Below are positions 5,580 to 27,066 of a DNA stretch of 27,724 nucleotides, one piece after another. Where the stretch lies: positions 1 through 27,724 of IMG/VR virus record IMGVR_UViG_2617270952_000002. One strand, given 5' to 3'. Made by a program: the position numbers and the translations under genes. Position 1 is the first letter of the stretch, and every line of letters starts with the position of its first letter. A model generated the notes under the pieces. That model saw only the letters and a program-made list of their open reading frames with translations. It did no database searches and was not told the origin of the DNA. The stretch is from a virus. Lineage: Duplodnaviria > Heunggongvirae > Uroviricota > Caudoviricetes.

Positions 5580-5596
5580 CAATCAATTAGAGCAAT
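5580..5596 (-). promoter_or_regulatory. C1 operator upstream of ref (overlapping a TATAAT -10 on the minus strand)
   Basis: caatcaattagagcaat; about 14/17 match to rc of ATTGCTCTAATAAATTT. Confidence 0.6.
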
Positions 5597-5729
5597 GGTA
5601 GGTATTTTTTTTATCGCGAATCACATTTTTTTACTTCAGTACCTGTGTGCTATACTCCTTCTTGATTGATTGGATGCGGAATACAAACCCGCTCTTTTGT
5701 GCAGCCTGGCTCCTTGCCAGGCTTTTTTT

Positions 5730-6041
5730 TTATTTCATCATGGAAGCTGTTAACGCTTTGGACCTTGCTGAACTGATTGAAAGGGCATTGTTTACCTTAC
5801 CCAGGAGTTCGCCAAATTCCGCCATCACTCTAGTAAGCCCGCGCCGCGCTTCCTCCTCCGTTGCATTCATCACAAAATGTTCAGCACTCCGCATGCTTTT
5901 AACGGGGAACGCAACAGATATCGAGTCGATATCAGGCATCCTATCGCTCAACTTTACGGTGACAATGACGGCTGGCGACTGAATATTAGTGCTTACAGAC
6001 AGCACTACATATTTTCCGTCGATGTTGAAATCCTTTCTCAT
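5730..6041 (-). CDS. hypothetical protein (103 aa) between cre and ref (position of P1 cra)
   Basis: Track ORF; C1 operator immediately upstream at 6058..6074. Confidence 0.5.
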   Translation of the reverse strand: MRKDFNIDGKYVVLSVSTNIQSPAVIVTVKLSDRMPDIDSISVAFPVKSMRSAEHFVMNATEEEARRGLTRVMAEFGELLGKVNNALSISSARSKALTASMMK

Positions 6042-6057
6042 ATGTCACCATAAATAT

Positions 6058-6074
6058 CAAAGAATTAGAGCAAT
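6058..6074 (-). promoter_or_regulatory. C1 operator-like site
   Basis: caaagaattagagcaat; about 13/17 to operator consensus. Confidence 0.45.
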
Positions 6075-6091
6075 AATTTACGCGTTAATGG

Positions 6092-7123
6092 CTAATCGCC
6101 ATCTTCCAGCAGGCGCACCATTGCCCCTGTTTCACTATCCAGGTTACGGATATAGTTCATGACAATATTTACGTTGGTCCAGCCACCAGCTTGCATGATC
6201 TCCGGTATTGAAACTCCGGCGCGGGCCATATCTCGCGCGGCTCCGACACGGGCACTGTGTCCAGACCAGGCCAGGTATCTCTGACCAGAGTCATCCTTAG
6301 CGCCGTAAATCAATCGATGAGTTGCTTCAAAAATCCCTTCCAGGGCGCGAGTTGATAGCTGGCTGGTGGATGATGGCGCGGCAACACCATTTTTTCTGAC
6401 GCGGCAAAACAGGTAGTTATTCGGATCATCAGCTACACCAGAGACAGAAATCCATCGCTCAACCAGTTTAGTTACCCCTAGGCTAAGTGCCTTCTCTACA
6501 CCAGCGGTGCTAACCAGCGTTTTCGTTCTGCCAATATGGATTAACATTCTCCCACCGTCAGTACGTGAGATATCTTTAACCCTGATCCTGGAAATTTCGG
6601 CTATACGTAACAGGGTGTTATAAGCAATCCCCAGAAATGCCAGATTACGTATATCCTGGCAGCGCTCACTATTTTCCATGAGTGAACGAACCAGGTCGAA
6701 ATCAGTGCGTTCGAACGCCAGCGCCTGTTTTGCACGCTCACCGGCATCAACGTTTTCTTTTCGGATCCGTCGCATGACCAGTGAAACAGCATTGCTGTCA
6801 CTTGGTCGTGGCAGCCCGGACCGACGATGAAGCATGTTTAGCTGGCCCAAATGTTGCTGGATAGTTTTTACTGCCAGACCGCGCGCCTGAAGATATAGAA
6901 GATAATCGCGAACATCTTCAGGTTCTGCGGGAAACCATTTCCGGTTATTCAACTTGCACCATGCCGCCCACGACCGGCAAACGGACAGAAGCATTTTCCA
7001 GGTATGCTCAGAAAACGCCTGGCGATCCCTGAACATGTCCATCAGGTTCTTGCGAACCTCATCACTCGTTGCATCGACCGGTAATGCAGGCAAATTTTGG
7101 TGTACGGTCAGTAAATTGGACAT
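6092..7123 (-). CDS. cre: Cre site-specific tyrosine recombinase
   Basis: 343 aa MSNLLTVHQNLPALPVDATSDEVRKNLMDMFRDRQAFSEHTWK...; matches remembered P1 Cre almost throughout; loxP lies about 420 bp upstream. Confidence 0.97.
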   Translation of the reverse strand: MSNLLTVHQNLPALPVDATSDEVRKNLMDMFRDRQAFSEHTWKMLLSVCRSWAAWCKLNNRKWFPAEPEDVRDYLLYLQARGLAVKTIQQHLGQLNMLHRRSGLPRPSDSNAVSLVMRRIRKENVDAGERAKQALAFERTDFDLVRSLMENSERCQDIRNLAFLGIAYNTLLRIAEISRIRVKDISRTDGGRMLIHIGRTKTLVSTAGVEKALSLGVTKLVERWISVSGVADDPNNYLFCRVRKNGVAAPSSTSQLSTRALEGIFEATHRLIYGAKDDSGQRYLAWSGHSARVGAARDMARAGVSIPEIMQAGGWTNVNIVMNYIRNLDSETGAMVRLLEDGD

Positions 7124-7130
7124 TTAACAC

Positions 7131-7352
7131 TCAGATAATGGTTTTAAGTAAAGTGTACAGGATCGGCTCTGCCTTTACCTGTTTATGGTTCTCGTCATAG
7201 AAACGCCAGCGACCACGCGTGCGTTCTATTTTCTCTTCACCGCGCGATAATGACAGTTGACAACTATCACGATCAAACCCTTTTGCCCGCCAGTAACCAC
7301 GGTTTTTCTCAAGCTCAATATGAGTGGACACTTTAGCAGCTGAATATCCCAT
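7131..7352 (-). CDS. hypothetical 73-aa ORF in the cre upstream region
   Basis: Track ORF; GAGGTG 8 nt before ATG; stop 8 bp before cre ATG. Confidence 0.35.
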   Translation of the reverse strand: MGYSAAKVSTHIELEKNRGYWRAKGFDRDSCQLSLSRGEEKIERTRGRWRFYDENHKQVKAEPILYTLLKTII

Positions 7353-7449
7353 TTTTCACCTCTGATTGATTGGTGGTGCTAAGTGCGCTACGCGAAATCT
7401 GGAGCACTAACACTGCCAACATTTCGCAGATTTTACGTAGCGCAACCTT

Positions 7450-7522
7450 GATCAAATGATCAAGTGATCACTATTTGACCTGATAAGGTATTTAACTGTA
7501 TGGATTTACAGGTAAATTGATC
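7450..7522 (-). promoter_or_regulatory. cluster of four GATC (TGATCA) Dam sites in the cre promoter region
   Basis: GATC at 7450, 7458, 7466 and 7519; cre promoters are known to be Dam-regulated. Confidence 0.55.
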
Positions 7523-7541
7523 ATGTTCAATAACCCTTAAG

Positions 7542-7575
7542 ATAACTTCGTATAATGTATGCTATACGAAGTTAT
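7542..7575. other. loxP: loxP recombination site
   Basis: Exact ATAACTTCGTATA-ATGTATGC-TATACGAAGTTAT. Confidence 0.97.
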
Positions 7576-7618
7576 TAGGTCCGAAGAGGAGTTTACGTCC
7601 AGCTGCGCATAAAAATCA

Positions 7619-7635
7619 AGAATTATTAGAGCAAT
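7619..7635 (-). promoter_or_regulatory. C1 operator
   Basis: agaattattagagcaat; 15/17 to rc consensus. Confidence 0.6.
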
Positions 7636-7694
7636 AAATTTTGAGAGAAAAATCCAACTCCACCAGCCAAAAACTGGATTGTTTTTCATAGTTG

Positions 7695-7722
7695 TTTGAC
7701 AATTGCTCTAATGAATTATAGT
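7695..7722 (+). promoter_or_regulatory. sigma70-like promoter (TTGACA-16-TATAGT) with embedded C1 operator 7702..7718, reading toward coi/c1
   Basis: ttgaca ATTGCTCTAATGAATTA tagt; operator 15/17. Confidence 0.65.
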
Positions 7723-7956
7723 TTTGCCGCCGTTTCGTAATACGACTTTGGATTCACTATTTAATGTGTCTTCAGCGTTGTAGAGCGGCTCAGAAGGAAA
7801 TGAGCAAACAGGGAAACCTTATACAACGGCATTACAGCTATGCATTGCTCATCTTACACACAGCGCAATGTTGTTAGATTACCCCAGCATGGATCATGGG
7901 TGAAACAGTAGGTCAGAGCTTCAGGCTCTGTGTTGTCAATACAGTGAGGCATAATT

Positions 7957-8166
7957 ATGGCTTTCATTCAACCAACCATCGACGACGTTAGACATTGCTC
8001 TAACGCTTTATCTGTAGACCCTGCCGAAACCGACGCTGCCCGCGCCATTGCTGAACACTACTCAAAGATATCCAATCAGGAGTACCGCATCACCCAAGAC
8101 GACCTGGATGACCTCACTGACACAATCGAATATCTCATGGCAACTAACCAGTTAGACTCACAATAA
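7957..8166 (+). CDS. coi: Coi, C1 inactivator
   Basis: 69 aa, immediately upstream of c1; size and position as in P1 immC. Confidence 0.85.
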   Translation: MAFIQPTIDDVRHCSNALSVDPAETDAARAIAEHYSKISNQEYRITQDDLDDLTDTIEYLMATNQLDSQ

Positions 8167-8182
8167 ATGCACTAATAAATCT
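8166..8182 (+). promoter_or_regulatory. weak C1 operator-like site between coi and c1
   Basis: aatgcactaataaatct; 14/17. Confidence 0.35.
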
Positions 8183-8276
8183 ATTATTTTTGTTTGATCC
8201 CTCTATAATATAGGTCAGTAATGACCGGTTTTCTCAGCCGGGCGTTATTGACCATGTCAATTCTGGAGGAGGATCA

Positions 8277-9128
8277 ATGATAAATTATGTCTACGGCGAA
8301 CAACTGTACCAGGAGTTCGTCAGCTTCAGGGATCTCTTTCTAAAAAAAGCTGTTGCACGCGCCCAACACGTTGATACAGCCAGCGACGGTCGTCCTGTAC
8401 GCCCGGTTGTCGTTCTACCGTTCAAAGAAACTGACAGCATTCAGGCTGAAATTGATAAATGGACTTTAATGGCGCGGGAACTGGAACAGTACCCAGACCT
8501 CAATATCCCAAAGACTATTTTATATCCAGTGCCTAACATCCTTCGCGGTGTGCGTAAGGTTACAACTTATCAGACAGAAGCTGTGAACAGCGTCAACATG
8601 ACCGCTGGCCGCATTATTCATCTGATTGATAAGGACATTCGCATCCAAAAAAGCGCGGGGATCAATGAGCACAGTGCGAAATACATAGAGAACCTGGAAG
8701 CAACAAAAGAGCTAATGAAGCAGTACCCGGAGGATGAAAAATTCCGTATGCGCGTACACGGCTTTAGCGAAACAATGCTGCGCGTCCACTACATTTCCAG
8801 TAGCCCTAACTACAATGATGGTAAATCAGTTAGTTACCATGTGCCACTGTGTGGCGTGTTTATCTGCGATGAAACTCTCCGTGATGGAATTATCATCAAC
8901 GGTGAATTCGAAAAAGCAAAATTTAGCCTTTATGACTCCATAGAACCGATCATCTGCGACCGCTGGCCGCAAGCAAAAATATATCGCCTGGCAGATATTG
9001 AAAATGTAAAAAAACAAATTGCCATCACTCGCGAAGAGAAAAAGGTTAAGTCAGCCGCATCAGTTACGCGCAGCCGTAAAACCAAGAAGGGGCAGCCAGT
9101 AAACGACAACCCCGAAAGCGCGCAATAA
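8277..9128 (+). CDS. c1: C1 repressor of lysogeny
   Basis: 283 aa MINYVYGEQLYQEFVSFRDLFLKKAVARAQHVD...; matches remembered P1 C1. Confidence 0.95.
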   Translation: MINYVYGEQLYQEFVSFRDLFLKKAVARAQHVDTASDGRPVRPVVVLPFKETDSIQAEIDKWTLMARELEQYPDLNIPKTILYPVPNILRGVRKVTTYQTEAVNSVNMTAGRIIHLIDKDIRIQKSAGINEHSAKYIENLEATKELMKQYPEDEKFRMRVHGFSETMLRVHYISSSPNYNDGKSVSYHVPLCGVFICDETLRDGIIINGEFEKAKFSLYDSIEPIICDRWPQAKIYRLADIENVKKQIAITREEKKVKSAASVTRSRKTKKGQPVNDNPESAQ

Positions 9129-9160
9129 ATTATGCCCGGCATCAACCGGGCATTCTTCCA

Positions 9161-10279
9161 TTATTCAGCCGCCACCGGTTTTAACAAGCCAGCATCGAGC
9201 AGTTTACGCGTCAACCACTGCTGGCCTTTACCCGTTAATTGAGGCGTCAACCGTATCTGGTAGCCATCTTCATCATCCAGCACCACTTCTTTCACCGTGA
9301 AATACCCCGCGTTGATGTACTGCTGGAACGGCACATTTTTACGTCCACCGGACGCTATCAGGATGCCGTTCTCCCGTAACCAGACAAACAGCGCGTTTTG
9401 TTTAAGTCCAACAACCTTTGCAAAATTCCCAATCAGGATCCCTTTAGCTACTGATACCCGGTCGGCAAAATCGACTTTAGGAGCGGCGGCCACCAGCTGC
9501 TGATTTAGCTGGTGGGCTTTCTGTTCCAGAAGTTGCTTTTGTTCAGCCAGTTCGGCAGCCAGGCGTAGGGCTTCAGGAAGCGTCTGGGGGATTGCGATCG
9601 GTTGCTGTTCTTTTTGTCGGAAGTAGCTGTCTTCCAGTTTTTCAAAGAATGCCCATGCCTGATCGGTTTCGAGCATTTTAGCGTGGCGGGCTGCGCCGCG
9701 TTCTGTCCAGAGGGGGAGTGAGCGAACATTGCGAGCAATTTTTACAGAGTAGTTTAAAGCTACTCTGTGCTTCAACTCGCGCAATGATTCTCCTTCAACT
9801 TTGAAAAAGTGCTTCCCTTCAACAAAGCGTACTTTGTTCTCATGATGATTTTGGCGAATACGGATTGTTTCTGTCCCATACCCTCTAGCAAGAGTCTCGG
9901 TTGTCACTACACGCACTCCCTGCCATTCCAGAACGGGAATTTCATCAGACTGATTCTGAACAACCACCAGCTCCGATTCTTGAACTGAAGGTGCATGAAT
10001 TTTTTCTGATTTAACGTTAGTTGCTTTCATTCTGTGTGCCTCCTTGCGTGCTTCGGCTGCGGCGGTTGCGTAATTCAGATGACCCTGTTCGAGCAGGTAT
10101 TCGCGGATATCAGACAACAGGATACGGTGAACCGCGTTCTTGTCCTTTCTCCGGTAAAGTTGTTTGGTGATCATGAAGTAGTTGGCAATAACGCCTGGTA
10201 TATCCCTGGTACTGATACAGGCAGTGTGCTGTTCAATTGCCTCGATCATCTCTTCACGGGTGACTAATGACGTTCTCAT
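9161..10279 (-). CDS. phage antirepressor-like protein (ORF6N-like central domain, KilA-C/ANT-like C-terminal domain)
   Basis: C-terminal ...VSVAKGILIGNFAKVVGLKQNALFVWLRENGILIASGGRKNVPFQQYINAGYFTVKE... resembles ANT C-terminal domain; central FVEGKHFFKVEGESL...LWTERGAARHAKMLETDQAWAFFEKL resembles ORF6N. Confidence 0.7.
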   Translation of the reverse strand: MRTSLVTREEMIEAIEQHTACISTRDIPGVIANYFMITKQLYRRKDKNAVHRILLSDIREYLLEQGHLNYATAAAEARKEAHRMKATNVKSEKIHAPSVQESELVVVQNQSDEIPVLEWQGVRVVTTETLARGYGTETIRIRQNHHENKVRFVEGKHFFKVEGESLRELKHRVALNYSVKIARNVRSLPLWTERGAARHAKMLETDQAWAFFEKLEDSYFRQKEQQPIAIPQTLPEALRLAAELAEQKQLLEQKAHQLNQQLVAAAPKVDFADRVSVAKGILIGNFAKVVGLKQNALFVWLRENGILIASGGRKNVPFQQYINAGYFTVKEVVLDDEDGYQIRLTPQLTGKGQQWLTRKLLDAGLLKPVAAE

Positions 10280-10497
10280 AGTCCCTCCTGAGCAGAAGCG
10301 TTAACAGGGAGGCACCAGTAACTGAGAGAATTGCGTGAATCAGTGGAAAAACGGGCAGAGAAAATACATGGGGCGTCAGGAAGCTGAGAGCGGGCCTCAT
10401 CTTCTGTCGGTGCAATAACGAAGTGATAGTGACGTTTTTGGCAGGAGTAAAAGCGCCAGATAAATTCAGGATGAGTTGGGATAGGGATAGTAGCCAT
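10276..10497 (-). CDS. hypothetical 73-aa protein immediately upstream of and overlapping the antirepressor start (Icd-like position)
   Basis: ATG at 10497 preceded by AAGGAGG; stop overlaps the antirepressor ATG (ATGA). Confidence 0.45.
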   Translation of the reverse strand: MATIPIPTHPEFIWRFYSCQKRHYHFVIAPTEDEARSQLPDAPCIFSARFSTDSRNSLSYWCLPVNASAQEGL

Positions 10498-10557
10498 ATT
10501 GGCAGCCTCCTTAGACGTTGGTATGTAACCACCGCAGAAGAGACCAATCTTGCTGGC

Positions 10558-10633
10558 GGTGGACTGTACGGAGTTGGCCTTACTGGCGTCCAAGGTAACC
10601 AGCCTACCCGAAGGTAGCCCCATACAGCCCACC
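10558..10633 (-). ncRNA. candidate structured regulatory RNA (c4-like antisense RNA position)
   Basis: 14-bp RNA duplex possible between 10620..10633 and 10558..10571 that includes two G-U wobbles (pairs only as minus-strand RNA), enclosing a CUACC-UUCG-GGUAG tetraloop hairpin at 10604..10617. Confidence 0.3.
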
Positions 10634-10661
10634 ATTGTAGAGGTGTGCGTGTACGCCGATA

Positions 10662-10686
10662 CAAAAAAAAGACGCGAGCGGCGTCT
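10662..10686 (-). terminator. rho-independent terminator downstream of pacB
   Basis: Hairpin gacgc-gagcg-gcgtc at 10671..10685 followed on the minus strand by a run of 8 T. Confidence 0.6.
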
Positions 10687-10816
10687 GTATCGCCTTAGAC
10701 TTAAGCGGGAGGCCAATCCCGGCACCCGTTTTAATGAGGTGCCTGATAAGCATAAACCGAAAATGCCTCAAGGCGCAAGAGGTCAGGCTCAATGTAACAT
10801 CGGTAGTTAAAAAACA

Positions 10817-10833
10817 CAATTTATTAGAGCAAA
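10817..10833 (-). promoter_or_regulatory. C1 operator
   Basis: caatttattagagcaaa; 15/17 to rc consensus. Confidence 0.6.
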
Positions 10834-10836
10834 TAT

Positions 10837-12321
10837 TCATTCATTAAGCCATGCCAGAGCTTCATCAACCTGCGCTTCGTCTTCGACGCTAAGCACTTCA
10901 TCCTGGGGAACATAATCCGCCAGCATAGCGAAACAATATGTATCCCAATGGTCTGGTGAGTGCAGGTTGAGTTTTTTCTTCATATCCTCCTTACTCATCA
11001 CCTTCCATTGACCTGCGGAGTTAATCCCTACAGGGATTTTCGACGCTTCCTCAATAGTTTCATTACCCTTATCCAGTCTCATACGACCAGATTTTACGGC
11101 CTCTGCGGCTTGAACGTTGGCATAAGCACGTTTATCAAAGTACAGGCTCTTATCTTCACGGCTATGCATCTTTTTACCCCAGCGTATACGCTGTACGGTA
11201 ATACCATAATACTCGTACATCAGATCCGCCGTTGCTTTACCCAGGCCATCGCCGTCTATCGCTATGGTGATATTTGGGAATCGCTCAGGATTACATTCTG
11301 CGAAAATTTTGGCGGCAAGCTGCGTTTCTGTAACGTCTGTGTATTCCAGCATTCGATAGTTGATTACACGGCGTTTATTTCGCTGGCCGGACACCATCAT
11401 GATATTGATAACGGACTTATCCCGTCCCGTACCACCAGCAACGTCCACACATGCAAGCCAGCCCCATCCTTTGGCAATCTTGACTTTCCGCCGCGTTGCA
11501 CGTTCAACCTCATCACGTCCAAGAAGGAAGCCATCCTGTGATTTAGGGAATAGGCCGCGTACCTTAATCATGTACATAGGGTTATCACGCCCGCCGTACT
11601 CCGCCAGCTTCATTTTGATAAATGCTGGCGTTACCAACGGTGATTCCTCACTGTTAAGCGTGATCGCCGTATAAACGCCATCAGGGTTACCAGGACGCTT
11701 GGCCAGTTTATGGTGTGTATCGTAGAAATAGCCGCTTGGGCGTGTAGGCTGTGACAGCAATAAGATGCGGTTATCCTGTCCGGTAAGAGCACCGGTGATG
11801 ATACCGAAAGCTCTATCACTGACACCGGAGGCTTCATCGATAATATACAGAAGATGATCTGCGTGTTCACCGGCGAGAGCTTCTTCACTTCCCAGACGAA
11901 AGCCCTTCGGTACTACAGTCCATACACCTTTACCAGTAACCTCATAGAAAGCGGTTTCTGTCAGAACAAAATAATCAGCAAGCCATGGAAAACGGCTGGT
12001 GGCAGTAGCCCAGTTTATCTTGATGTACTTGAATATACCGGTCATTACCTGCTGAATTTTGTTCGCAACGATAATGGCGCGGGCACCGGGATACATGATT
12101 ATGAACAACATGATCATGATAGAAGTCATGTCTGATTTCCCGGTACCGTGACCAGACGAAACAGATGTCTTGCTACCCTGTTCCTGCACAGACTCAATAA
12201 TCAGATCCTGCTGCCAGGTAGGTGTTTTGCCGAACAAAACATCAGCGGCAGCAATCCAGTCATAACGATATAGCGCCACCAGCTCGCGCCAACGTGGATC
12301 CGTTACGCAACTTCTGGCCAT
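10837..12321 (-). CDS. pacB: terminase large subunit (PacB-like)
   Basis: 494 aa; Walker [10 protein letters not shown], Walker [12 protein letters not shown]; same length as remembered P1 PacB. Confidence 0.8.
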
Positions 12322-12903
12322 TAATCATCATCCCCGTATAGCTTGCGGGTAACTTCTTCGTCTTCCTCCTCGTCTTCGTCCAGGTCTTGTTCCAGCCATG
12401 GGTCGTTTGATACACCTTCAGTATCAACATCTCCATAACCGCCTGTATCAACGATATCGGCGATTTCTTCCCTACGCTGCTCAATCCACAATGCGGCATC
12501 GGCGCGGCGGTTGGCGGCCCGTTCTCGCGCAACTTTGTCCAGATCTTCAAGAGAAGGGCCACCGACGGCTGTTTGCCTTTCCTCATCATCGGTATTGGTC
12601 TTAGGAGCACGCAGATCGGCTTTGATTTGCTCCAGCATCAGGGGCGGCACTTTTCCGCCATGCGCCTCGATGAATTCAGCTGCTTCCAGCACTGACCAGT
12701 TATTTTCACGCTTTCGTTCGTAAGCGCAGATAAACATCGCGCTTATCGACATCCAGATGCGGGTATTCCTTTTCAAGAATTGCTGCGAGTTCTTTCGCTG
12801 ATAGAAGAGATTTAGTGCGGATCATGTAATCCGCAATCTCGTACGATGTTATTCGTGAGTGATTTATTTCCATGAAGTGGCGTCCCTGCCAGTTAAGTAA
12901 CAT
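12321..12903 (-). CDS. putative terminase small subunit / DNA-binding protein region, split over two frames (12706..12903 and 12321..12776)
   Basis: Two overlapping ORFs related by a +1 shift; acidic C-terminal tail DEDEEEDEE abutting pacB start; C1 operator upstream. Confidence 0.4.
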
Positions 12904-12973
12904 CCTGTCACCTACTGATTAGCCCATGTCAACTAATCAACGTGAAATATAATACCCTCGATTAAAGAAATGG

Positions 12974-12990
12974 CAATACATTAGAGCAAT
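12974..12990 (-). promoter_or_regulatory. C1 operator
   Basis: caatacattagagcaat; 14/17. Confidence 0.5.
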
Positions 12991-12991
12991 T

Positions 12992-14035: not shown

Positions 14036-14062
14036 ATCACACCTTTCATCACTGATTGGGCT

Positions 14063-21036: not shown

Positions 21037-21115
21037 CCCAATTCGTGTTTTTCTTGCGGGTTCTTAATTAAACCCGCAAGAGACCGTGGGGTTCCAAATG
21101 GCTAATATACTCCCC

Positions 21116-21202
21116 TTACCCATGTGCGACGATATCGCCAAAAGTGATAGAGAACAGCCAGAAATAGATCGCGGCCATAATGATTTTGAATGCCGTGTTC
21201 AT
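21116..21202 (-). CDS. hypothetical 28-aa hydrophobic peptide
   Basis: MNTAFKIIMAAIYFWLFSITFGDIVAHG; AGGAG 7 nt upstream of ATG; C1 operator 83 bp upstream; not in the ORF track (below size cut-off). Confidence 0.35.
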   Translation of the reverse strand: MNTAFKIIMAAIYFWLFSITFGDIVAHG

Positions 21203-21230
21203 ATTTTCAGCTCCTGTGATTGATTGGATA

Positions 21231-21261
21231 CATGCCGCGCCTTGCGGCATGTTTTTATTTT
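21231..21261 (+). terminator. rho-independent terminator-like hairpin (plus strand, downstream of hsdR)
   Basis: catgccgc-gcctt-gcggcatg followed by tttttatttt. Confidence 0.5.
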
Positions 21262-21284: not shown

Positions 21285-21301
21285 ATATTTATTAGAGCAA
21301 T
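21285..21301 (-). promoter_or_regulatory. C1 operator
   Basis: atatttattagagcaat; 16/17 to rc consensus. Confidence 0.65.
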
Positions 21302-21807
21302 TATTGTTGATGGAGAAGCGCGTTTTCATACTCCCTGACCATTAACGTAAGCACGCCGTGCCTCCTGAAAACACGCGCCACTTCAATCTTATCTTCCAGC
21401 GCGAACGCGATTTTACTTAGACCAATTTTCTTAAGGAGATCAATCTTTGCTGGGCCGTCATTTCTGTCATCGGTGGCAGGACGCATAGATAGCAAAGGCT
21501 CAGCCCCGTTTGTTACGTACTTCCGCAGCCAGGCTCGTGTTTTATCCCTTGCGATCTCACAGCGCCCGGTTACAAACCAGACCGTGTAAACGTTAAATAA
21601 CTGGCGCACAATATCAATAACTGGAGTTATGGGAGTATCAGTGTCACAGGCGAGATTAAACTCGTTCCAGTCCTTTGTTAATGCACCTTTACCTGGTGGC
21701 GGAAGCAAATGCAGTCTGTCTTCAGTTGCCTCTGATATTGTTCCATCAATATCAACTATGACGATATACGGACGTTCCTGGTGTGCGTGTTTATTGAAAA
21801 TACTCAA
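21301..21807 (-). CDS. HAD-superfamily phosphatase-like protein
   Basis: N-terminal IVIVDIDGTIS (DxDGT motif I); 168 aa. Confidence 0.6.
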   Translation of the reverse strand: MSIFNKHAHQERPYIVIVDIDGTISEATEDRLHLLPPPGKGALTKDWNEFNLACDTDTPITPVIDIVRQLFNVYTVWFVTGRCEIARDKTRAWLRKYVTNGAEPLLSMRPATDDRNDGPAKIDLLKKIGLSKIAFALEDKIEVARVFRRHGVLTLMVREYENALLHQQ

Positions 21808-21879
21808 ATGCCCTCCTCATTGGACGAAAAAAATGCTGGTGGGCGCACTCCACCAGCATCAAAAGTGACACTGTAACTG

Positions 21880-23142
21880 TCAGCGAACGTAAATAGTGCC
21901 GCCGTTCTCTTTTTCCCATGCATCGCTACGTGCATAGCAAACATCGAGAAGTCTTCTTGCCGCTGTTTCCTCTAAACCCAATTCGACAACCAACTGCTCA
22001 TGACGGCGGGTAACCACATCAAACAGGGTATGCAGCCCTTTAGCTGCCAGATCATCAATAAATTCCGGTTCGAACGGCAGCTCTGCCTCTGCCAACATAA
22101 CCTCTTGCGCCCACTCAACTCGACGGACCAGTTCCGGGCGGCGGCTTTCCATCTCTTTACAGATCAATTCATGGAAGAACTCTACCCAACCTTCCGGCTG
22201 GAACTCGCGGAAAATGGCCAACGGCTGGAAGTTTGGCATCAACCATTCGTTGATTCGGATATCAATGGCATAGCCCATGTCGCAGCAGAACTGATAAGCA
22301 AAGTCCAGCTTAGAAACGATATAAGGACGCTCGTTATTGAACTCTTTAGGCGATGAGATCCCATAAGCCAGGAGGCGCGGGAAGAAGGAGATTTGCCCTA
22401 ACGTCGGATGAAGTTTGCTTGCAGGGAAACGTCGCTCAGTAATGCCATACATTTCCTTCTTGAGCGTCGCAAATTTGGCATTCTCATTAACCAGCGCGGT
22501 AACCTCTGCTTTTTTATTAGCAAATGCCACGCGCGCCTCACTTGCATCTTTAATAGTCTTTTTGAGCTGTTGGTTAAGGTCGGCGACCTGCTTACGCAGT
22601 TCCTGTCGCTCACTTTTGGCTTTGTTATAGCGTTTCTCAAGGTTAAAAGGATCAAGTTTCATGATCTCTTTATATTGAGATTTTAGCGTTGAAATCTGTG
22701 AGTTCCGCAGTTCAACCATCGCGGTCACTTCATTGAGTTTTGTTTCCAGCTCAATGCTTATACGTTCGGCATTATCAGCACGCTGGTTGGCGTCATGCGT
22801 CGCATCGTCGATCGCGTCCTGTTGCTGGCGTTTCAAATGTTCAATTTGCAGCTGAAGCTCTTCAATTTCTTTACCCTTCAGACCGAGATCCAACTGCATA
22901 TTTTCAGCTGCATCTACCAGGGAGTTATGGCTATCAGCTTCTGCGTTATAAACATCAATAAGCTGTGCGTGAAGCATCTCCGCTGACTGAACCGCATTAT
23001 CAAAAAAACGTGCTGTGAGGTCATCACAACTAACGCGGCGTTGCGCGGCCCGGATGTTCTGGATAATGGCCGGGATACCGGCATTCAGGACATCAGGGAT
23101 AGATACATTTTCGATTGATTGGTTTTGTGCTGAAGTGCTCAT
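21880..23142 (-). CDS. hypothetical protein with long coiled-coil N-terminal half (420 aa)
   Basis: Track ORF; heptad-rich Q/E/K/L sequence in residues ~90-230; start immediately after upstream stop. Confidence 0.55.
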   Translation of the reverse strand: MSTSAQNQSIENVSIPDVLNAGIPAIIQNIRAAQRRVSCDDLTARFFDNAVQSAEMLHAQLIDVYNAEADSHNSLVDAAENMQLDLGLKGKEIEELQLQIEHLKRQQQDAIDDATHDANQRADNAERISIELETKLNEVTAMVELRNSQISTLKSQYKEIMKLDPFNLEKRYNKAKSERQELRKQVADLNQQLKKTIKDASEARVAFANKKAEVTALVNENAKFATLKKEMYGITERRFPASKLHPTLGQISFFPRLLAYGISSPKEFNNERPYIVSKLDFAYQFCCDMGYAIDIRINEWLMPNFQPLAIFREFQPEGWVEFFHELICKEMESRRPELVRRVEWAQEVMLAEAELPFEPEFIDDLAAKGLHTLFDVVTRRHEQLVVELGLEETAARRLLDVCYARSDAWEKENGGTIYVR

Positions 23143-23143
23143 T

Positions 23144-23362
23144 TCAAAGTTCCGTATTAGCTTGTGCTTCGGTCATTTTTCCTAAGTATGAAGGAGGAAG
23201 GACTACGCAATTTGTATCCAGTCCCTCACCTATGGCAGCCTGTAAAATTCTGGCTAAGGTGAGTCTCTTGTTGCGATACCTGGTGATGACATGCCTGATA
23301 CCGCCGGTCGGCGTAACAAAGGCGATCAGCCAGTAGTGATATTTCCGTCGGAATGGCCACAT
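23144..23362 (-). CDS. hypothetical 72-aa protein
   Basis: Track ORF; stop adjacent to downstream ATG (coupling); operator pair upstream. Confidence 0.4.
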   Translation of the reverse strand: MWPFRRKYHYWLIAFVTPTGGIRHVITRYRNKRLTLARILQAAIGEGLDTNCVVLPPSYLGKMTEAQANTEL

Positions 23363-23376
23363 AGTGCACCCTGTAG

Positions 23377-23442
23377 ATTGCTCTAATAAAAAACGTGATA
23401 AGTGTACATCACGTTTTAAAAATATGGAATTATTAGAGCAAT
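23377..23442. promoter_or_regulatory. pair of inverted C1 operators (23377..23393 and 23426..23442)
   Basis: ATTGCTCTAATAAAAAA and ggaattattagagcaat; each 14/17. Confidence 0.6.
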
Positions 23443-23443
23443 A

Positions 23444-24145
23444 TTATTCTGATTCTCGCTCAAAAAACGAGCTGATAAGGGGAAGCCAATCCTCTGACAC
23501 TTCGCGAGGTCGCGGTTTGCCGTGGAAAAAGATTATTCGGCAGTCTTTTGGTAATGCCCCATTCCCCCTGGAGTAACGCGCGCTCGCATATTTCGAACCA
23601 GGTTCCACAACATCGGCCTTGTAACTTACAAACCATCCCGGATACAGATCCTGAAATGCTGGTGTATCATCACCCATAACCTTCCGCAAAAACCCCTGCT
23701 CACCCCAGCATTCAGTAGTAACACAACGAGCAACCCAACCTTCCGGATCTTGCCAGAATGCACTCCAGATATGCGCTTTTACACTATTTGGTATCCACAG
23801 GGCACCGCTACCACGATATTGTGGATGGTAAAAATCCCTAAGCATGGTGAAGCTGGTTGGTGGATTCTCAAGGATTGGGCGTATATCACCGGCAATAACT
23901 GTGTCCAAATCCAGATAGAACAGATCATCTGTTATATCCGGTCGGAACAACTCTATTTTCGCCCACCAGCCACGGCACTTTTGCCACTGGTTGATCAATG
24001 GGACAACTTTGACGCCAGGTACATGTAAACGCTTCAGGTCTGTCAGGCAAATAATTTCATAGCCTTTTGGCAGTTGATTAACCAGCCACTGCACATCGGA
24101 AGCGTTATAGTCACCACCAGAGCGAAAAACTAAAGCAATCTTCAT
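23444..24145 (-). CDS. hypothetical protein with DxD motif (possible GT-A-like nucleotide-sugar transferase fold)
   Basis: 233 aa; ...[12 protein letters not shown]...; assignment weak. Confidence 0.4.
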
Positions 24146-24834
24146 GCTGCACCATCACCTTTCACTTTCATCAATGTCAGGTTTCCGCAAAATACGGCAC
24201 CAGTGTCGATATACTGCTGATTCCAGAATGTCTTCGGGCTTTTCACCGGAGTGTGACCAAAGATAAAACGATCTGCGCCCGAAATTTCGCCACCAATATC
24301 ATCCATCGAATCACTGATACGCTCGCGCGCCCAGACAACGTTGAAAAGCGGCACCTCCTTACCGAATTGGTATTCATTATCCGGATAGTCGGCATGGGCT
24401 ATAACGATAGTTTCTTGCCCGGTGTTCAACTCAATGATATAGGGCAGTCGTCTTACCAACTCCACCAGCGCCCAGGCTAATATTTCCTGCTCAGTGTCCA
24501 GCATGAAGAACCATTGTCCGCCATTCATTAGCCAGTTATTCACGTTGCCATCTGGACTTAACGCATCAATCATCAGCCGCTCATGGTTACCCATGACCGC
24601 TCTGAACCAGGGCATCTGCAATAGTTCCAGACATTCGACATTTTCAGTACCGCGATCGATAAGGTCGCCGACCGATATCAGTAAATCCTGCGCCGGGTCA
24701 AAATCCACACGATGGAGTTCGGACATCAGTCTGGTGTAGCAACCATGCAGATCACCAACAACCCAGACATTCCTGTATTTGGTACCGTCGATACGGTGAT
24801 AAATTGTGGGTGCCATCATGTATTCTTCAGCCAT
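24142..24834 (-). CDS. Ser/Thr protein phosphatase-family metallophosphoesterase (lambda PPase-like)
   Basis: Motifs GDLHGC, GDLIDRG, GNHE. Confidence 0.85.
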
Positions 24835-25442
24835 TCTTTAAGAGTCATCTGCGGAATACCTCCCATTCTCCCGCATGAAACAACGTCAATCTGTTCACGC
24901 GCAGACTGGAATAACAAAGGCAGGTGACTTAGATTTTTTGGCGTGCCGCCGGAGTGAACGCGTGGTTCTTGTGTAGCGTCAACGCCCACCAGGGCGACAT
25001 GTTTGAATCCGATATGGAAAGCCAGGTTCAGAGCGCCATATGCACTATTGCCGCTGGCAATTTCATTCTCATCTTCGCAAAGTCCGAAATGTGCGGACCA
25101 GCGCCACGCCCACCACTCGGGAGAATTCGTATTTTTTGGCTCCATGCCACGTTCAGCCACACGACGGAAGCACAGAACGCCGTCTCTGACTTCACGTTCT
25201 TTAACATCGGGTAGTGCCATGCAATAACAAACACCACGGCGACGGCGGCCACGACCAACGCGCCGCATATTGTCTGGCGATGGATCAAGTGTGAAAAAAT
25301 AAGAAGCGCGGTTCAGCCAGTCGATGGCCCCATTGACCGCTATAATCGGCACTCCGCGCGGCGCAACAAAGTTTGCGGCGCTTGGGCCACTGCCGACGAT
25401 AATAACGCGATCACTGCCTCTAAATTTATTCTTGGGAAACAT
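24816..25442 (-). CDS. hypothetical protein, GxGPS Rossmann-like motif (paralog 1)
   Basis: VIIVGSGPS...IIAVNGA; paralogous to next gene. Confidence 0.5.
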
Positions 25443-26002
25443 TGAATTGCACTGCTCCTACTTGCATTCAAAATATGTAAATCTGCGTGTTTTTTGCGGG
25501 TATCCAGGAACTGCTGTTGCCATTTTGAAATAGACACCTGCGTTGGATTCCGTAGGGCTTGAGGGTGTGCTCCATGCCAATGAAGGCCGTTTTGCAGAGA
25601 ACAGTCATAGCCGACTAATACAACTACTTCAGCCCCTGATTCAGCCGCCAGACTGATAGCCTGCGCGCCGCTATTAACCCCTTCAGCCGGTCCACAATAT
25701 CGCCTGTACTCCAACGAAAATGATTTCGCCGCCGCCAGGTTGGCTGTCACTTTGCGGAATCTCCCTCCCGGTATGGTGGATCCGTATTGCTTCCACCATG
25801 ACAAATCACCGGCGTATAAGGCATAAATGTCATCGAACATCTGCCAGGAATTGTTAACCGCGATGATTGAACAGCCAGTTTTTTCTATAGCAGCACAGTC
25901 CTCACGAGTGAGTGACGGACCGCTACCGACACAAAAAACAGTCCTAGTCGCCCTGGGTGGTATGTTCATTCTCAGCTGCAAATTCAGCCTCCAGGCGAGC
26001 AT
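25340..26002 (-). CDS. hypothetical protein, GxGPS Rossmann-like motif (paralog 2); start may be internal Met at ~25969
   Basis: VFCVGSGPS...IIAVNNS; shares LVG-D and HxG blocks with paralog 1. Confidence 0.5.
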   Translation of the reverse strand: MLAWRLNLQLRMNIPPRATRTVFCVGSGPSLTREDCAAIEKTGCSIIAVNNSWQMFDDIYALYAGDLSWWKQYGSTIPGGRFRKVTANLAAAKSFSLEYRRYCGPAEGVNSGAQAISLAAESGAEVVVLVGYDCSLQNGLHWHGAHPQALRNPTQVSISKWQQQFLDTRKKHADLHILNASRSSAIQCFPRINLEAVIALLSSAVAQAPQTLLRRAECRL

Positions 26003-26165
26003 TCATTTCAGCGATTACCGGGTCCACTACAGCATCTGCTTCCTGTTCATTACGCGGCATGATCGATGCCAGCGATTCATAATTAGCCTTGGATGACACG
26101 ATTATTCTCCCGATGTTAATGTGCGCTATATCAAAGAGCACACATGCACTAATTAATTTATTATT

Positions 26166-26744
26166 TCACGTAGCGTACAACCACTTGTCACCGTTCAATA
26201 CATGCTCAATAGCCTCACCCTTTTTAAGGCTCATGTATTCCAGGATGGCGGTTATCGCTTGTTCTGCACCATACGCAAGAACGACGTAGTAACCTTCCTC
26301 TCTAAGCCTGCGCATCCAGGCGATCTGCTCTTTCGTCGGGGCTTTACCATTTGGTTCTTTAAGCTCAATTCGCATGCCGTGATAAATACCGCATGCTTTA
26401 TCGAGACTCATGTCCGGATAACCTTTTTTCTGCCCTTCAGCCTTCATTTTCCCGGCGGTTGCTTTTGAACGTTTCCCTCCGTTAGGCGTTGCATGCAACA
26501 GCTCATAGATGTCAGGGTGCTTGCGTTCGAAGTAATCAAAAATGAAAACCTGCTCGAAGTGCTCGCAATTTCCGTCGCGCAGGTCGGGGTTCTTTGCCAG
26601 TGCTGCAAGTGCCTTCGCATGTGGAGAAACTTCTTTTACCGGCGCAAGCGATAAGAATGGATCCTTTTTGGTTTTTGGCCTGGACCGCCCCTTATTTCGA
26701 CGCTCACTAAAAGCCTGAAACTCTTCCTCAGTAAAGCGCAACAT
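26166..26744 (-). CDS. VRR-NUC domain nuclease-like protein
   Basis: ...HATPNGGKRSKATAGKMKAEGQKKGYPDMSLDKACGIYHGMRIELKEPNGKAPTKEQIAWMRRL... (PD-(D/E)xK-like D...ELK). Confidence 0.65.
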   Translation of the reverse strand: MLRFTEEEFQAFSERRNKGRSRPKTKKDPFLSLAPVKEVSPHAKALAALAKNPDLRDGNCEHFEQVFIFDYFERKHPDIYELLHATPNGGKRSKATAGKMKAEGQKKGYPDMSLDKACGIYHGMRIELKEPNGKAPTKEQIAWMRRLREEGYYVVLAYGAEQAITAILEYMSLKKGEAIEHVLNGDKWLYAT

Positions 26745-26746
26745 AA

Positions 26747-26992
26747 TCAGTCAAATCCTGCCGGTCGCATGCTATATTTACGCTGTTTTGCAGCCTGCTC
26801 TTCCCTGTGCCATTGCGCACATTCAGCGTCACAATAAATGCCTGATTCAATCGATTCATTGCAGTAACGACACTTCCCTGTAAATACCTGGCTCACGACC
26901 TGTGCCTGCTTTCTGATGTTATCGATGGCCATGTCTTTGAGAGCTTCTAACTGATTCATGCTCAGCTCTGCATCATCAACACGTTCTGCCAA
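26747..26992 (-). CDS. TraR/DksA-family C4 zinc-finger protein
   Basis: 81 aa; CRYCNESIESGIYCDAEC. Confidence 0.6.
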   Translation of the reverse strand: MAERVDDAELSMNQLEALKDMAIDNIRKQAQVVSQVFTGKCRYCNESIESGIYCDAECAQWHREEQAAKQRKYSMRPAGFD

Positions 26993-27049
26993 TTTTGTTT
27001 CCTCGTGAAGAACCTACTTAAGGGCAGAATGATACATTTCACAATCAAA

Positions 27050-27066
27050 ATTGCACTAATAATTTT
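27050..27066 (+). promoter_or_regulatory. C1 operator-like site in divergent intergenic region
   Basis: attgcactaataatttt; 15/17. Confidence 0.5.

What the first reader, a model, noticed from the sequence alone, without database searches (positions are those of the whole stretch)
5580..27066. Dense C1 operator network spanning backbone and cargo junctions
At least ten matches (13-16 of 17) to ATTGCTCTAATAAATTT occur in intergenic positions at 5580, 6058, 7619, 7702, 8166, 10817, 12974, 21285, 23377/23426 and 27050. Several overlap -35/-10 elements. Together they define which operons are prophage-repressed, including the small-peptide gene beside hsdR and the right-arm operon.
Basis: partly seen in the sequence, partly recalled or inferred. 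Interest (0 to 1): 0.45.

Follow-up and report, generated by a model that had tools for sequence, protein, structure and literature searches.

The report
Phage P1 repressor operator set
The repeated 17-base motif is the well-known set of binding sites for the C1 repressor of a phage P1-like plasmid, so the finding is real but ordinary. One extra site heads a second, little-described antirepressor operon next to the repressor gene.

Summary
Ten matches with at most 3 mismatches occur against 0.18 expected. A PWM built only from P1 operators outside this region gives 14 hits of at least 12 bits against 0.49 expected, and 12 of them lie in the 12% of the window that is non-coding.

The window is a P1-family phage-plasmid. 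Its C1 is 99% identical to P1 C1, Lxc is 100% identical and Coi 97%. All 13 C1 operators curated in this arm of the P1 reference sit at orthologous positions. The network itself is therefore already known.

Two sites are not curated in P1:
- **10817-10833** heads a complete second immI-type operon between c1 and pacB: operator, promoter, a1b1/isrK leader, C4 antisense RNA, icd, ant. Its antisense loops and their targets co-vary across relatives.
- **6058-6074**, upstream of c8, has the perfect operator core in most natural relatives but is degenerate in lab P1 and P7.

Two target operons are altered. A 1.13-kb deletion truncates lpa and pacA. An EcoR124-type hsd cassette replaces pmgT, leaving Op88 in front of a 28-codon ORF only. 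There are no operators inside the foreign cargo.

The parts
2101..2349 (+). lxc, co-repressor that enhances C1 binding to its operators
   Evidence: 82/82 aa identical to P1 Lxc
4914..4931 (-).
   Evidence: Identical to the curated P1 operator. 17.4 bits with the independent PWM.
5580..5596 (-). Oref (former Op2a), lying between the -35 and -10 of P2ref
   Evidence: Identical to the curated P1 operator. P2ref -10 TATAAT is conserved at 5573-5578.
6058..6074 (-). Candidate operator upstream of c8 (ATTGCTCTAATTCTTTG); not annotated in P1 or P7
   Evidence: 14.1 and 18.6 bits with the two PWMs. P1 and P7 carry ATTGCTATAATTATTTG here. 41 of 44 IMG/VR contigs with P1-type flanks carry the window's variant.
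7619..7635 (-). Oc1e (former Op99e), abutting the -35 of P4cre
   Evidence: Identical to P1
7702..7718 (+). Oc1d (former Op99d), between the -35 and -10 of P1coi; controls coi, imcBA and c1
   Evidence: One difference from P1, at position 12
7957..8166 (+). coi, C1 inactivator
   Evidence: 67/69 aa identical to P1 Coi
7994..8010 (+).
   Evidence: Identical to P1
8166..8193 (.). Bivalent operator Oc1ab (Oc1a 8166-8182 +, Oc1b 8177-8193 -), overlapping the -35 of Pc1; c1 autoregulation
   Evidence: Oc1a is identical to P1 and Oc1b differs at one base
8277..9128 (+). c1, the repressor that reads the operators
   Evidence: 281/283 aa identical to P1 C1.100
10817..10833 (-). Operator of the second immI-type operon (TTTGCTCTAATAAATTG), starting 4 bp after the pacB stop codon and overlapping the -35 of a TGn-extended -10 promoter
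   Evidence: 21.1 bits with the independent PWM. Sequence context. Positionally homologous to P1 Oc4/P2c4. An operator-like 17-mer is present in all 43 IMG/VR copies of the module.
10665..10742 (-). Leader RNA of immI-2 (isrK / c4-a1b1 type) carrying decoy targets a1 TTGGCCT and b1 GTCTAAGG, ending in a hairpin plus U-run
   Evidence: Rfam isrK 60.8 bits against a gathering score of 50. Terminator-like site. Complementarity.
10552..10639 (-). C4-type antisense RNA of immI-2, with loops b' CCTTGGAC and a' AGGCCAA
   Evidence: Rfam C4 75.9 bits against a gathering score of 45. Loops and targets co-vary among the window, JL22 and RCS47.
10276..10497 (-). icd-2, Icd-like 73-aa gene; its Shine-Dalgarno sequence is covered by target b2
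   Evidence: 53/66 aligned residues (80%) identical to P1 Icd. PHROG and Pfam Ash/Icd hits.
9161..10279 (-). ant-2, antirepressor (ORF6N + KilAC domains); its start overlaps the icd-2 stop (ATGA)
   Evidence: 55% identical to P1 Ant1, with a near-identical C-terminus. Pfam ANT and ORF6N. PHROG anti-repressor.
12974..12990 (-). Olpa (former Op94), overlapping the -35 of Plpa
   Evidence: Identical to P1. Promoter-like site 12976-12949.
12706..12903 (-). lpa', truncated late-promoter activator (62 native residues plus 3), fused by a 1.13-kb deletion to the 3' end of pacA
21285..21301 (-). OpmgT (former Op88), overlapping the predicted PpmgT promoters; pmgT itself is replaced by the hsd cassette
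   Evidence: One difference from P1. Highest PWM score in the window, 27.8 bits.
21116..21202 (-). 28-codon hydrophobic ORF (MNTAFKIIMAAIYFWLFSITFGDIVAHG) with an AGGAG Shine-Dalgarno sequence; the only ORF left downstream of OpmgT
   Evidence: Conserved in P1 upstream of pmgT. Annotated by PGAP in a relative as a 44-aa hypothetical protein.
23377..23393 (+). OpmgRb (former Op86b)
   Evidence: Identical to P1
23426..23442 (-). OpmgRa (former Op86a), overlapping the -35 of PpmgR; controls pmgR and pmgS
   Evidence: Identical to P1
26143..26159 (+).
   Evidence: Identical to P1. 17.4 bits.
27050..27066 (+). O26 (former Op82), in the divergent pmgL / gene 26 control region
   Evidence: Identical to P1. 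24.2 bits.

Best explanation
The sites are the C1 repressor operators of a P1-family phage-plasmid. C1 is encoded at 8277-9128. It binds asymmetric 17-bp sites (consensus ATTGCTCTAATAAATTT) that overlap or abut the -35/-10 hexamers of sigma-70 promoters, and so keeps early and lytic operons shut in the plasmid prophage. Lxc (2101-2349) strengthens binding. Coi and Ant-type antirepressors inactivate C1.

Thirteen sites in this window are positional orthologues of curated P1 operators. They control mat, ref, cre/cra, coi-imcBA-c1, c1 autoregulation, lpa, pmgT, pmgR-pmgS, ppp/pmgN and pmgL/gene 26.

A fourteenth site (10817) is the operator of a second immI-type operon inserted between c1 and pacB. 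From the operator-overlapped promoter a transcript runs through a leader with decoy sites a1/b1, a C4-type antisense RNA, icd-2 and ant-2. The processed C4 RNA pairs with a2/b2 (b2 covers the icd-2 Shine-Dalgarno sequence) and blocks antirepressor synthesis.

A fifteenth site (6058) may be a C1 site in front of c8.

Shown here: the sequences, their orthology, enrichment over chance, intergenic placement, intact regulator genes, RNA family membership and antisense/target covariation. Inferred: actual C1 binding and repression in this element.
For: - **Identity of the element:** the window is a Punavirus-like element at 95-98% identity to P1, SJ46, RCS47 and others.
- **Orthology:** the curated protein_bind features of AF234172 map one-to-one onto window sites with 0-1 differences. 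Most annotated promoter hexamers are also conserved.
- **Enrichment:** the independent 7-operator PWM gives 14 hits of at least 12 bits against 0.49 in shuffles, with 12 of 14 in the 12% non-coding DNA.
- **Regulators:** C1 281/283, Lxc 82/82 and Coi 67/69 residues identical to P1.
- **Polymorphism among 22-28 IMG/VR relatives:** the 11-bp operator core varies at 2 of 88 columns, against 122 of 895 for other non-coding columns (Fisher p = 0.0007). Changes cluster in the degenerate 3' half of the operators.
- **Site 10817:** 21.1 bits. Rfam C4 75.9 bits and isrK 60.8 bits immediately downstream. Icd-2 80% and Ant-2 55% identical to P1 Icd and Ant1. The alignment to P1 Oc4/P2c4/c4 has the same geometry. 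P1's own immI gives the same Rfam pattern. The a'/b' loops and a1/a2/b1/b2 targets co-vary across the window, JL22 and RCS47, while the operator and promoter stay invariant. All 43 IMG/VR copies carry an operator-like 17-mer right after the pacB stop.
- **Literature:** 22 dispersed C1 operators and this consensus are established for P1 (PMC8546580).
Against: - There are no binding or expression data for this element.
- Several of the P1 promoters that the operators overlap are only 'predicted' in the reference record (PpmgT, PpmgR, PpmgN, PpmgL).
- The simple sigma-70 scan did not pick up the immI-2 promoter. That promoter rests on positional homology to P1 P2c4 plus a TGn-extended -10.
- The 6058 site has a poor 3' half, lies downstream of the predicted Pc8, and has no precedent in P1 or P7.
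- Over whole 17-mers the polymorphism deficit is only marginal (p = 0.07).
- The element lacks an intact lpa, the pacA 5' part and the pac site. Part of the network therefore controls a lytic programme that can no longer be completed.
Confidence: 0.9

Rival explanations
1. The matches are chance or compositional. On this view AT-rich intergenic DNA and promoter-like sequence simply resemble an AT-rich 17-mer.
For: The 3' half of the motif (TAATAAATTT) is AT-rich and promoter-like. One hit in coding DNA (21410, 12.4 bits) looks like such a chance match.
Against: Whole-window dinucleotide shuffles give 0.18 matches against 10 observed and 0.49 against 14. Shuffling the intergenic DNA alone gives 0.12. 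The GC-containing core ATTGCTCTAAT is the invariant part. The sites coincide with curated operators of P1.
Confidence: 0.01
2. The operators are authentic by descent but largely vestigial here. The element is a defective, plasmid-locked P1 derivative. The network no longer decides between lysogeny and a productive lytic cycle, and it persists mainly to silence toxic early genes and antirepressors.
For: A 1.13-kb deletion removes the 3' 60% of lpa, the late promoter LPpac, the pac site and the 5' two-thirds of pacA. A near-identical deletion occurs in E. coli H15 plasmid A and two other genomes. darB is truncated next to IS sequences. pmgT, pmgU and pmgV are replaced by hsd.
Against: C1, Lxc and Coi are intact and the operators are unchanged. 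Repression of kilA/repL-type functions and of two ant operons still needs C1. The rest of the genome lies outside the window, so defectiveness cannot be fully judged. This reading modifies the output of the network, not the identity of the sites.
Confidence: 0.5
3. The 10817 and 6058 sites are not functional operators. On this view they are relics: 10817 is a scar of the recombination that copied an immI module next to pacB, and 6058 is a fortuitous half-site.
For: Neither site is annotated in P1 or P7. 6058 matches only 13/17 and its 3' half is poor. One of 43 IMG/VR copies of the 10817 site has a core change, TTTCC.
Against: 10817 scores 21.1 bits, higher than 9 of the 13 curated orthologues. 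It overlaps the -35 exactly as Oc4 does in P1. It stays invariant while the adjacent antisense determinants diversify. The 6058 core is fixed in 41 of 44 natural relatives with P1-type flanks. Curated P1 operators Orlf and Oc1c have equally poor 3' halves.
Confidence: 0.15

Closest known systems
C1 operator regulon of bacteriophage P1 (Op sites, curated in GenBank AF234172 / NC_005856; P7 AF503408)
   Same: Same 17-bp asymmetric consensus and the same repressor (99% identity). Thirteen sites lie at orthologous positions with 0-1 changes. The overlap with promoter hexamers is the same, and the bivalent Oc1ab arrangement is retained.
   Different: There are two extra sites (10817, 6058). Olpa now precedes a truncated lpa'-'pacA fusion. 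OpmgT precedes only a 28-codon ORF, because an EcoR124-type hsdMSR cassette replaces humD...pmgT.
immI operon of P1/P7 (Oc4/Op51 - P51a/b - a1b1 leader - c4 antisense RNA - icd - ant1/2)
   Same: The order of parts is identical, with an operator overlapping the -35 of a TGn-extended -10 promoter. Rfam C4 and isrK/a1b1 hits are present. A 73-aa Icd is 80% identical over 66 aligned residues. The icd-ant junction is an ATGA overlap, and target b2 lies over the icd Shine-Dalgarno sequence.
   Different: The module sits between c1 and pacB, not beside sim/kilA. It occurs in addition to the canonical immI in 673R5, JL22 and RCS47. The a'/b' loops are unrelated to those of P1 or P7, and at least 4 specificity types exist. 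The central domain of Ant is replaced by ORF6N. The literature I could search mentions only 'an antirepressor (ant) inserted between pacB and c1' (PMC6906374).
IsrK / C4-family antisense control of antirepressors in other prophages (Rfam RF01394, RF01695, RF03163)
   Same: The leader and antisense RNA reach the gathering scores of these families.
   Different: Here the module is wired to a P1 C1 operator. I did not examine non-P1 members.
Type IC hsd loci (EcoR124, EcoDXXI) flanked by P1 DNA
   Same: HsdR is 1038 aa and essentially identical to EcoR124 HsdR (PDB 2w00, 2309 bits). The cassette boundaries coincide with the stretches the P1 record marks as identical to EcoDXXI/R124 flanks, and these include Op88. 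The hsdR-Op88-pap junction occurs in 258 PLSDB plasmids.
   Different: Nothing notable. This shows that the 'operator beside hsdR' juxtaposition is itself already on record.

Membership tests
P1 C1-controlled operators | Match to the asymmetric 17-bp consensus ATTGCTCTAATAAATTT, far above chance | tested here: met
   10 sites with at most 3 mismatches against 0.18 expected. 14 sites of at least 12 bits against 0.49 with an independent PWM.
P1 C1-controlled operators | Positional orthology to experimentally defined or curated P1 operators | tested here: met
   13 of 13 curated operators of this arm are found at orthologous positions. This feature is not met for 10817 and 6058, which have no counterpart annotated in P1 or P7.
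P1 C1-controlled operators | Cognate repressor C1, co-repressor Lxc and inactivator Coi encoded by the same element | tested here: met
   C1 281/283, Lxc 82/82 and Coi 67/69 residues identical to P1
P1 C1-controlled operators | Placement in non-coding DNA, overlapping or abutting sigma-70 promoter hexamers | tested here: met
   12 of 14 PWM hits lie in the 12% non-coding DNA. P1's annotated -35/-10 hexamers map next to or onto the sites and are mostly conserved. Several of those promoters are only predicted in the P1 record.
P1 C1-controlled operators | C1 binding (footprint or EMSA) and C1-dependent repression | not testable with these tools
   Inferred from identity of the sites and of the repressor to P1
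immI-type antisense-controlled antirepressor operon (c4-icd-ant) | C4 antisense RNA and a1b1/isrK-type leader | tested here: met
   Rfam C4 75.9 bits (gathering score 45) at 10552-10639. isrK 60.8 bits (gathering score 50) at 10665-10742. P1 immI gives the same pattern.
immI-type antisense-controlled antirepressor operon (c4-icd-ant) | Loops a'/b' complementary to a1/b1 (leader) and a2/b2 (over the icd Shine-Dalgarno sequence) | tested here: met
   a' AGGCCAA pairs with TTGGCCT and TTGGTCT. b' CCTTGGAC pairs with GTCTAAGG at both positions, each with one G-U pair. Compensatory changes are seen in JL22 and RCS47 and 4 loop types exist in IMG/VR.
immI-type antisense-controlled antirepressor operon (c4-icd-ant) | icd homologue translationally coupled to an ant homologue | tested here: met
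   Icd-2 80% and Ant-2 55% identical to P1. The stop and start codons overlap at 10276-10279.
immI-type antisense-controlled antirepressor operon (c4-icd-ant) | C1 operator overlapping the upstream promoter (Op51/P51a arrangement) | tested here: met
   TTTGCTCTAATAAATTG is followed by TTGTGT-17 nt-TACATT with a TGn, aligned to P1 Oc4/P2c4. The promoter is not detected by the generic scan.
immI-type antisense-controlled antirepressor operon (c4-icd-ant) | Ant protein inactivates C1 | not testable with these tools
   Homology only. The central domain differs from P1 Ant1.

The most novel reading that the evidence does not exclude
Many natural P1-like plasmids, this one included, carry a second, complete, C1-operator-controlled immI-type operon wedged between c1 and pacB. 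Its C4 antisense RNA has diversified into at least four specificities, each with co-varying targets, and all are orthogonal to the canonical immI C4. That would make it a second, so far uncharacterised heteroimmunity and antirepressor circuit. In addition, most natural relatives would have a C1 operator in front of c8 that the laboratory P1 and P7 strains have lost through a C-to-A change that creates a TATAAT.
Probability: 0.4. Interest if true: 0.45.

Novelty: already known. Interest (0 to 1): 0.22.

Why it matters
For the finding as stated, it matters little. It re-identifies the classical P1 C1 regulon in a P1-like plasmid, and that mainly helps annotation.

- **Defective element.** The mapping shows which operons are still wired to C1 in a derivative that has lost lpa, part of pacA and the pac site and has gained an EcoR124-type restriction system. 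This bears on whether such widespread plasmids can still be induced and transduce.
- **Second immI operon.** This is the more useful by-product. It lies next to c1, and its invariant operator and promoter contrast with rapidly diversifying antisense specificity. If functional, it adds a second layer to superinfection immunity and to prophage-prophage cross-talk among P1-like plasmids, which carry resistance genes in Enterobacteriaceae.

Tried and rejected
- **Operators inside the cargo.** I looked in hsdMSR (15025-21036) and the AraC-like/EAL pair (2388-4035). The best PWM scores were 7.5 and 7.1 bits, which is background. The idea that cargo carries its own C1 sites is rejected.
- **Site 21410-21426 in pap.** It scores 12.4 bits with the 7-site PWM but 7.1 with the 20-site PWM and has core mismatches. 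I treat it as chance.
- **Generic sigma-70 scan of 5400-13200.** It found no more promoter-like sites than shuffles did (12 against 11.7) and missed the immI-2 promoter. Promoter claims therefore rest on P1's annotation and on homology.
- **Whole-operator polymorphism test.** It was only marginal (p = 0.07). Only the 11-bp core test is significant.
- **Hairpin between the 28-codon ORF and hsdR (about 21051-21083).** It has no U-run on either strand, so I do not call it a terminator. The only terminator-like site there is on the + strand at 21230-21252.
- **Łobocka et al. 2004 (P1 genome paper).** It is not held in the library. I used the GenBank record's own curated features instead.
- **Literature searches for a described second immI.** They returned only the remark in PMC6906374. 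Subscription-journal papers (RCS47, D6) could not be checked.
- **mat.** It looked frameshifted relative to P1's annotated start, but an internal ATG (MDKKIC...) gives an intact ORF. I do not count it as a pseudogene.

Full report

Yes. The 17-mer ATTGCTCTAATAAATTT has 10 matches with at most 3 mismatches in the 27.7-kb window. The expectation is 0.18, and none of 100 dinucleotide shuffles reached 10. The eleventh site, 6058-6074 (-), is ATTGCTCTAATTCTTTG: 13/17, with the first 11 bases perfect.

To avoid circularity I built a PWM from only the seven curated P1 operators that lie outside the part of P1 homologous to this window: Ossb, Oc4, OrepL, Orlf, Odmt, Obana and Obanb. It gives 14 hits of at least 12 bits, against a mean of 0.49 and a maximum of 3 in 500 shuffles. 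Twelve of the 14 lie in the 12.3% of the window that is non-coding. Shuffling the intergenic DNA alone gives 0.12.

**2. What is the window?**

It is a P1-family (Punavirus) phage-plasmid, in reverse orientation relative to the P1 reference. It is 95-98% identical to P1, P7, SJ46, RCS47, JL22 and vB_EcoM-673R5. The layout is:

| Window coordinates | Content |
|---|---|
| 1-548 | IS1 fragment |
| 972-1376 | IS3-type transposase ORF |
| 1413-1630 | Truncated darB |
| 1664-2349 | ulx, lxc |
| 2388-4035 | AraC-like and EAL-domain genes in place of res/mod |
| 4089-7352 | mat, ref, c8, cre, cra |
| 7541-9128 | lox, immC (imcA, imcB, coi, c1) |
| 9129-10836 | 1.7-kb insert |
| 10837-14848 | pacB, a deletion junction, pdcB, pdcA, doc, phd |
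| 15025-21036 | hsdM, hsdS, hsdR |
| 21301-27525 | pap, pmgS...pmgL, gene 26 |

C1 is 281/283 identical to P1 C1.100, Lxc 82/82 and Coi 67/69.

**3. Mapping onto known operators.**

The P1 reference record AF234172 carries curated 'protein_bind: phage repressor C1' features. All 13 that lie in this arm are present at orthologous window positions with 0-1 base changes:

| Operator | Window position |
|---|---|
| Omat | 4914-4931 |
| Oref | 5580-5596 |
| Oc1e | 7619-7635 |
| Oc1d | 7702-7718 |
| Oc1c | 7994-8010 |
| Oc1a | 8166-8182 |
| Oc1b | 8177-8193 |
| Olpa | 12974-12990 |
| OpmgT | 21285-21301 |
| OpmgRb | 23377-23393 |
| OpmgRa | 23426-23442 |
| Oppp | 26143-26159 |
| O26 | 27050-27066 |

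Omat, Oc1c, Oc1b and Oppp were missed because they are weaker matches.

P1's annotated promoter hexamers map next to or onto the operators and are mostly conserved. Examples are Oref between the -35 and -10 of P2ref, Oc1d between those of P1coi, and Oc1a, Olpa, OpmgT, OpmgRa and O26 over -35 boxes. The statement that several sites overlap -35/-10 elements therefore holds, with the caveat that several of those promoters are only predicted in the P1 record.

The literature states that C1 binds 22 dispersed operators with exactly this asymmetric consensus, helped by Lxc and antagonised by Coi and Ant (PMC8546580). The network is therefore already known.

**4. Conservation.**

Among 22-28 IMG/VR relatives fetched by a flank pattern, operator columns vary less than other non-coding columns: 10 of 130 against 122 of 895, p = 0.07. 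The 11-bp core ATTGCTCTAAT varies at only 2 of 88 columns (p = 0.0007). The changes that do occur fall in the degenerate 3' half.

**5. The site at 10817-10833: a second immI operon.**

P1 and P7 have c1 and pacB almost abutting. The window has 1.7 kb between them.

On the minus strand, starting 4 bp after the pacB stop, lies TTTGCTCTAATAAATTG (21.1 bits, better than 9 of the 13 curated orthologues). It is followed by TTGTGT-17 nt-TACATT with a TGn. Then come:
- an isrK/a1b1-type leader at 10742-10665 (Rfam 60.8 bits, ending in a hairpin and U-run);
- a C4 antisense RNA at 10639-10552 (75.9 bits);
- a 73-aa Icd homologue, 80% identical to P1 Icd over 66 aligned residues;
- an Ant homologue with ORF6N and KilAC domains, overlapping by ATGA, 55% identical to Ant1 with a near-identical C-terminus.

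P1's own immI gives the same Rfam pattern and aligns with the same geometry, including an operator overlapping the -35 of the TGn-extended P2c4.

The antisense determinants are different. P1 has a' CTGTCAA and b' TCACTAAC. The window has a' AGGCCAA and b' CCTTGGAC. The four targets match them: a1 TTGGCCT, a2 TTGGTCT, and b1 and b2 both GTCTAAGG, with b2 over the icd-2 Shine-Dalgarno sequence.

JL22 and RCS47 carry the same module at the same place, with identical operator, promoter and 5' leader. Their loops are again different (GTCTCAA with CCTTTTGC, and GTCTCAA with CCTTTGAC), with fully compensating targets. These phages and 673R5 also keep a canonical immI with P1/P7-type loops, so there are two orthogonal circuits per element.

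In IMG/VR, 43 copies of the module all sit right after the pacB stop and all keep an operator-like 17-mer. Four loop combinations occur. In PLSDB, 242 plasmids cover at least 80% of a query spanning this module.

[quoted passage not shown] RCS47' (PMC6906374). It mentions no operator and no C4 RNA. I rate this a new member of a known kind, not a new kind.

**6. The site at 6058-6074.**

It lies between the cre stop and the c8 start. P1 and P7 have ATTGCTATAATTATTTG here, where a C-to-A change at position 7 creates TATAAT. No operator is annotated there.

The window has the full core. So do 41 of 44 IMG/VR contigs with P1-type flanks. The pattern excluded P7-type flanks, so this is not an unbiased census.

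Its 3' half is poor, but no poorer than those of the curated Orlf and Oc1c. It is a reasonable but unproven C1 site. I give it about 0.4.

**7. What has changed downstream of the operators.**

(a) Olpa and Plpa are intact, but a 1,134-bp deletion has occurred (P1 locus L001 3494-4627 is missing). It removes the 3' 60% of lpa, LPpac, the pac cleavage region and the 5' two-thirds of pacA. What remains is a 65-codon lpa' fused to 'pacA-pacB. The best plasmid relatives have the intact region. E. coli H15 plasmid A and two other genomes have a deletion with the same pacA-side breakpoint and 49 bp more of lpa. Without Lpa and pac, the element should be unable to activate late promoters or to package.

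(b) OpmgT (Op88) is the best-scoring site at 27.8 bits. It now precedes only a 28-codon hydrophobic ORF with an AGGAG Shine-Dalgarno sequence (21202-21116). P1 homology stops a few bases after that ORF's stop codon, where P1 continues into pmgT and the window into the 3' flank of hsdR. PGAP annotates the ORF in a relative as a 44-aa hypothetical protein.

HsdR is essentially EcoR124 HsdR (PDB 2w00). The cassette boundaries are those the P1 record itself marks as identical to the flanks of the EcoDXXI/R124 hsd loci, including Op88. The junction occurs in 258 PLSDB plasmids.

**8. Mechanism, with shown and inferred steps.**

Shown: motif enrichment, intergenic placement, orthology to curated operators, intact c1, lxc and coi, RNA family hits, and antisense/target covariation.

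Inferred from established P1 biology: C1 monomers bind each 17-mer. Lxc stabilises the complex. RNA polymerase is excluded from the overlapped promoters. Coi and Ant proteins release repression. C4-type RNA blocks icd/ant translation by pairing at a2/b2.

**9. Verdict.**

The only modestly new elements are the operator-headed second immI operon with diversifying antisense specificity and the candidate c8 operator. Interest is 0.22.

Noticed in passing
window 12706-12776 (junction near 12722-12724); compare L001 3494-4627: A 1,134-bp deletion fuses the first 62 codons of lpa to the last ~134 codons of pacA. It removes LPpac and the pac cleavage site, so the element is probably unable to run late transcription or to package. 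A deletion with the same pacA-side breakpoint but 49 bp more of lpa occurs in E. coli H15 plasmid A (NZ_CP010179.1) and two other complete genomes. The window's exact junction was not seen elsewhere.
   Followed up: yes
window 9161-10833: A complete second immI-type operon lies between c1 and pacB: C1 operator, isrK/a1b1 leader, C4 RNA, icd-like gene and ORF6N-KilAC ant. The C4 loops are unrelated to those of P1 or P7. At least four loop types with co-varying targets exist among relatives, while the operator and promoter stay invariant.
   Followed up: yes
window 6058-6074; L002 3336-3352; L056 187-203: Laboratory P1 and P7 carry ATTGCTATAATTATTTG (a perfect TATAAT) upstream of c8. The window and 41 of 44 IMG/VR relatives with P1-type flanks carry ATTGCTCTAATTCTTTG, which has the full C1 operator core. 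The lab strains may have lost an operator or gained a -10 element.
   Followed up: partly
window 21116-21202 (-): A 28-codon hydrophobic ORF (MNTAFKIIMAAIYFWLFSITFGDIVAHG) with an AGGAG Shine-Dalgarno sequence lies downstream of Op88. It is conserved in P1 just upstream of pmgT but is not annotated in AF234172. PGAP calls a 44-aa version a hypothetical protein. The P1 / hsd-cassette breakpoint lies a few bases after its stop codon. No PHROG match.
   Followed up: partly
window 15025-21036: hsdM (520 aa), hsdS (404 aa) and hsdR (1038 aa) form a type IC restriction-modification cassette. HsdR is essentially identical to EcoR124 HsdR (PDB 2w00). The cassette replaces P1 humD-lxr-hot-upfMNO-pmgVUT at the junctions already noted in the P1 record.
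   Followed up: partly
window 2388-4035: A low-GC (32-38%) pair of genes, an AraC-family regulator (244 aa, - strand) and an EAL-domain protein (229 aa, + strand), occupies the place of the EcoPI res/mod genes between lxc and mat.
   Followed up: partly
window 1-1630: An IS1 fragment (1-548, 98.5% identical to P1's IS1) and an IS3-family transposase OrfA-like ORF (972-1376) abut a darB remnant. Only the last ~220 bp of darB are present.
   Followed up: partly
window 21230-21252 (+): A 10-bp GC-rich hairpin followed by TTTTATTTTC on the + strand is terminator-like for transcripts coming from hsdR. It lies between the 28-codon ORF and Op88, and is also conserved in P1.
   Followed up: no
window 4761-4843: Relative to P1's annotated mat start there is a 1-bp deletion after codon ~31. 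An internal ATG (MDKKIC...) gives an intact ORF, so P1's annotated N-terminus may be over-extended. The last ~45 codons of mat diverge from P1.
   Followed up: partly
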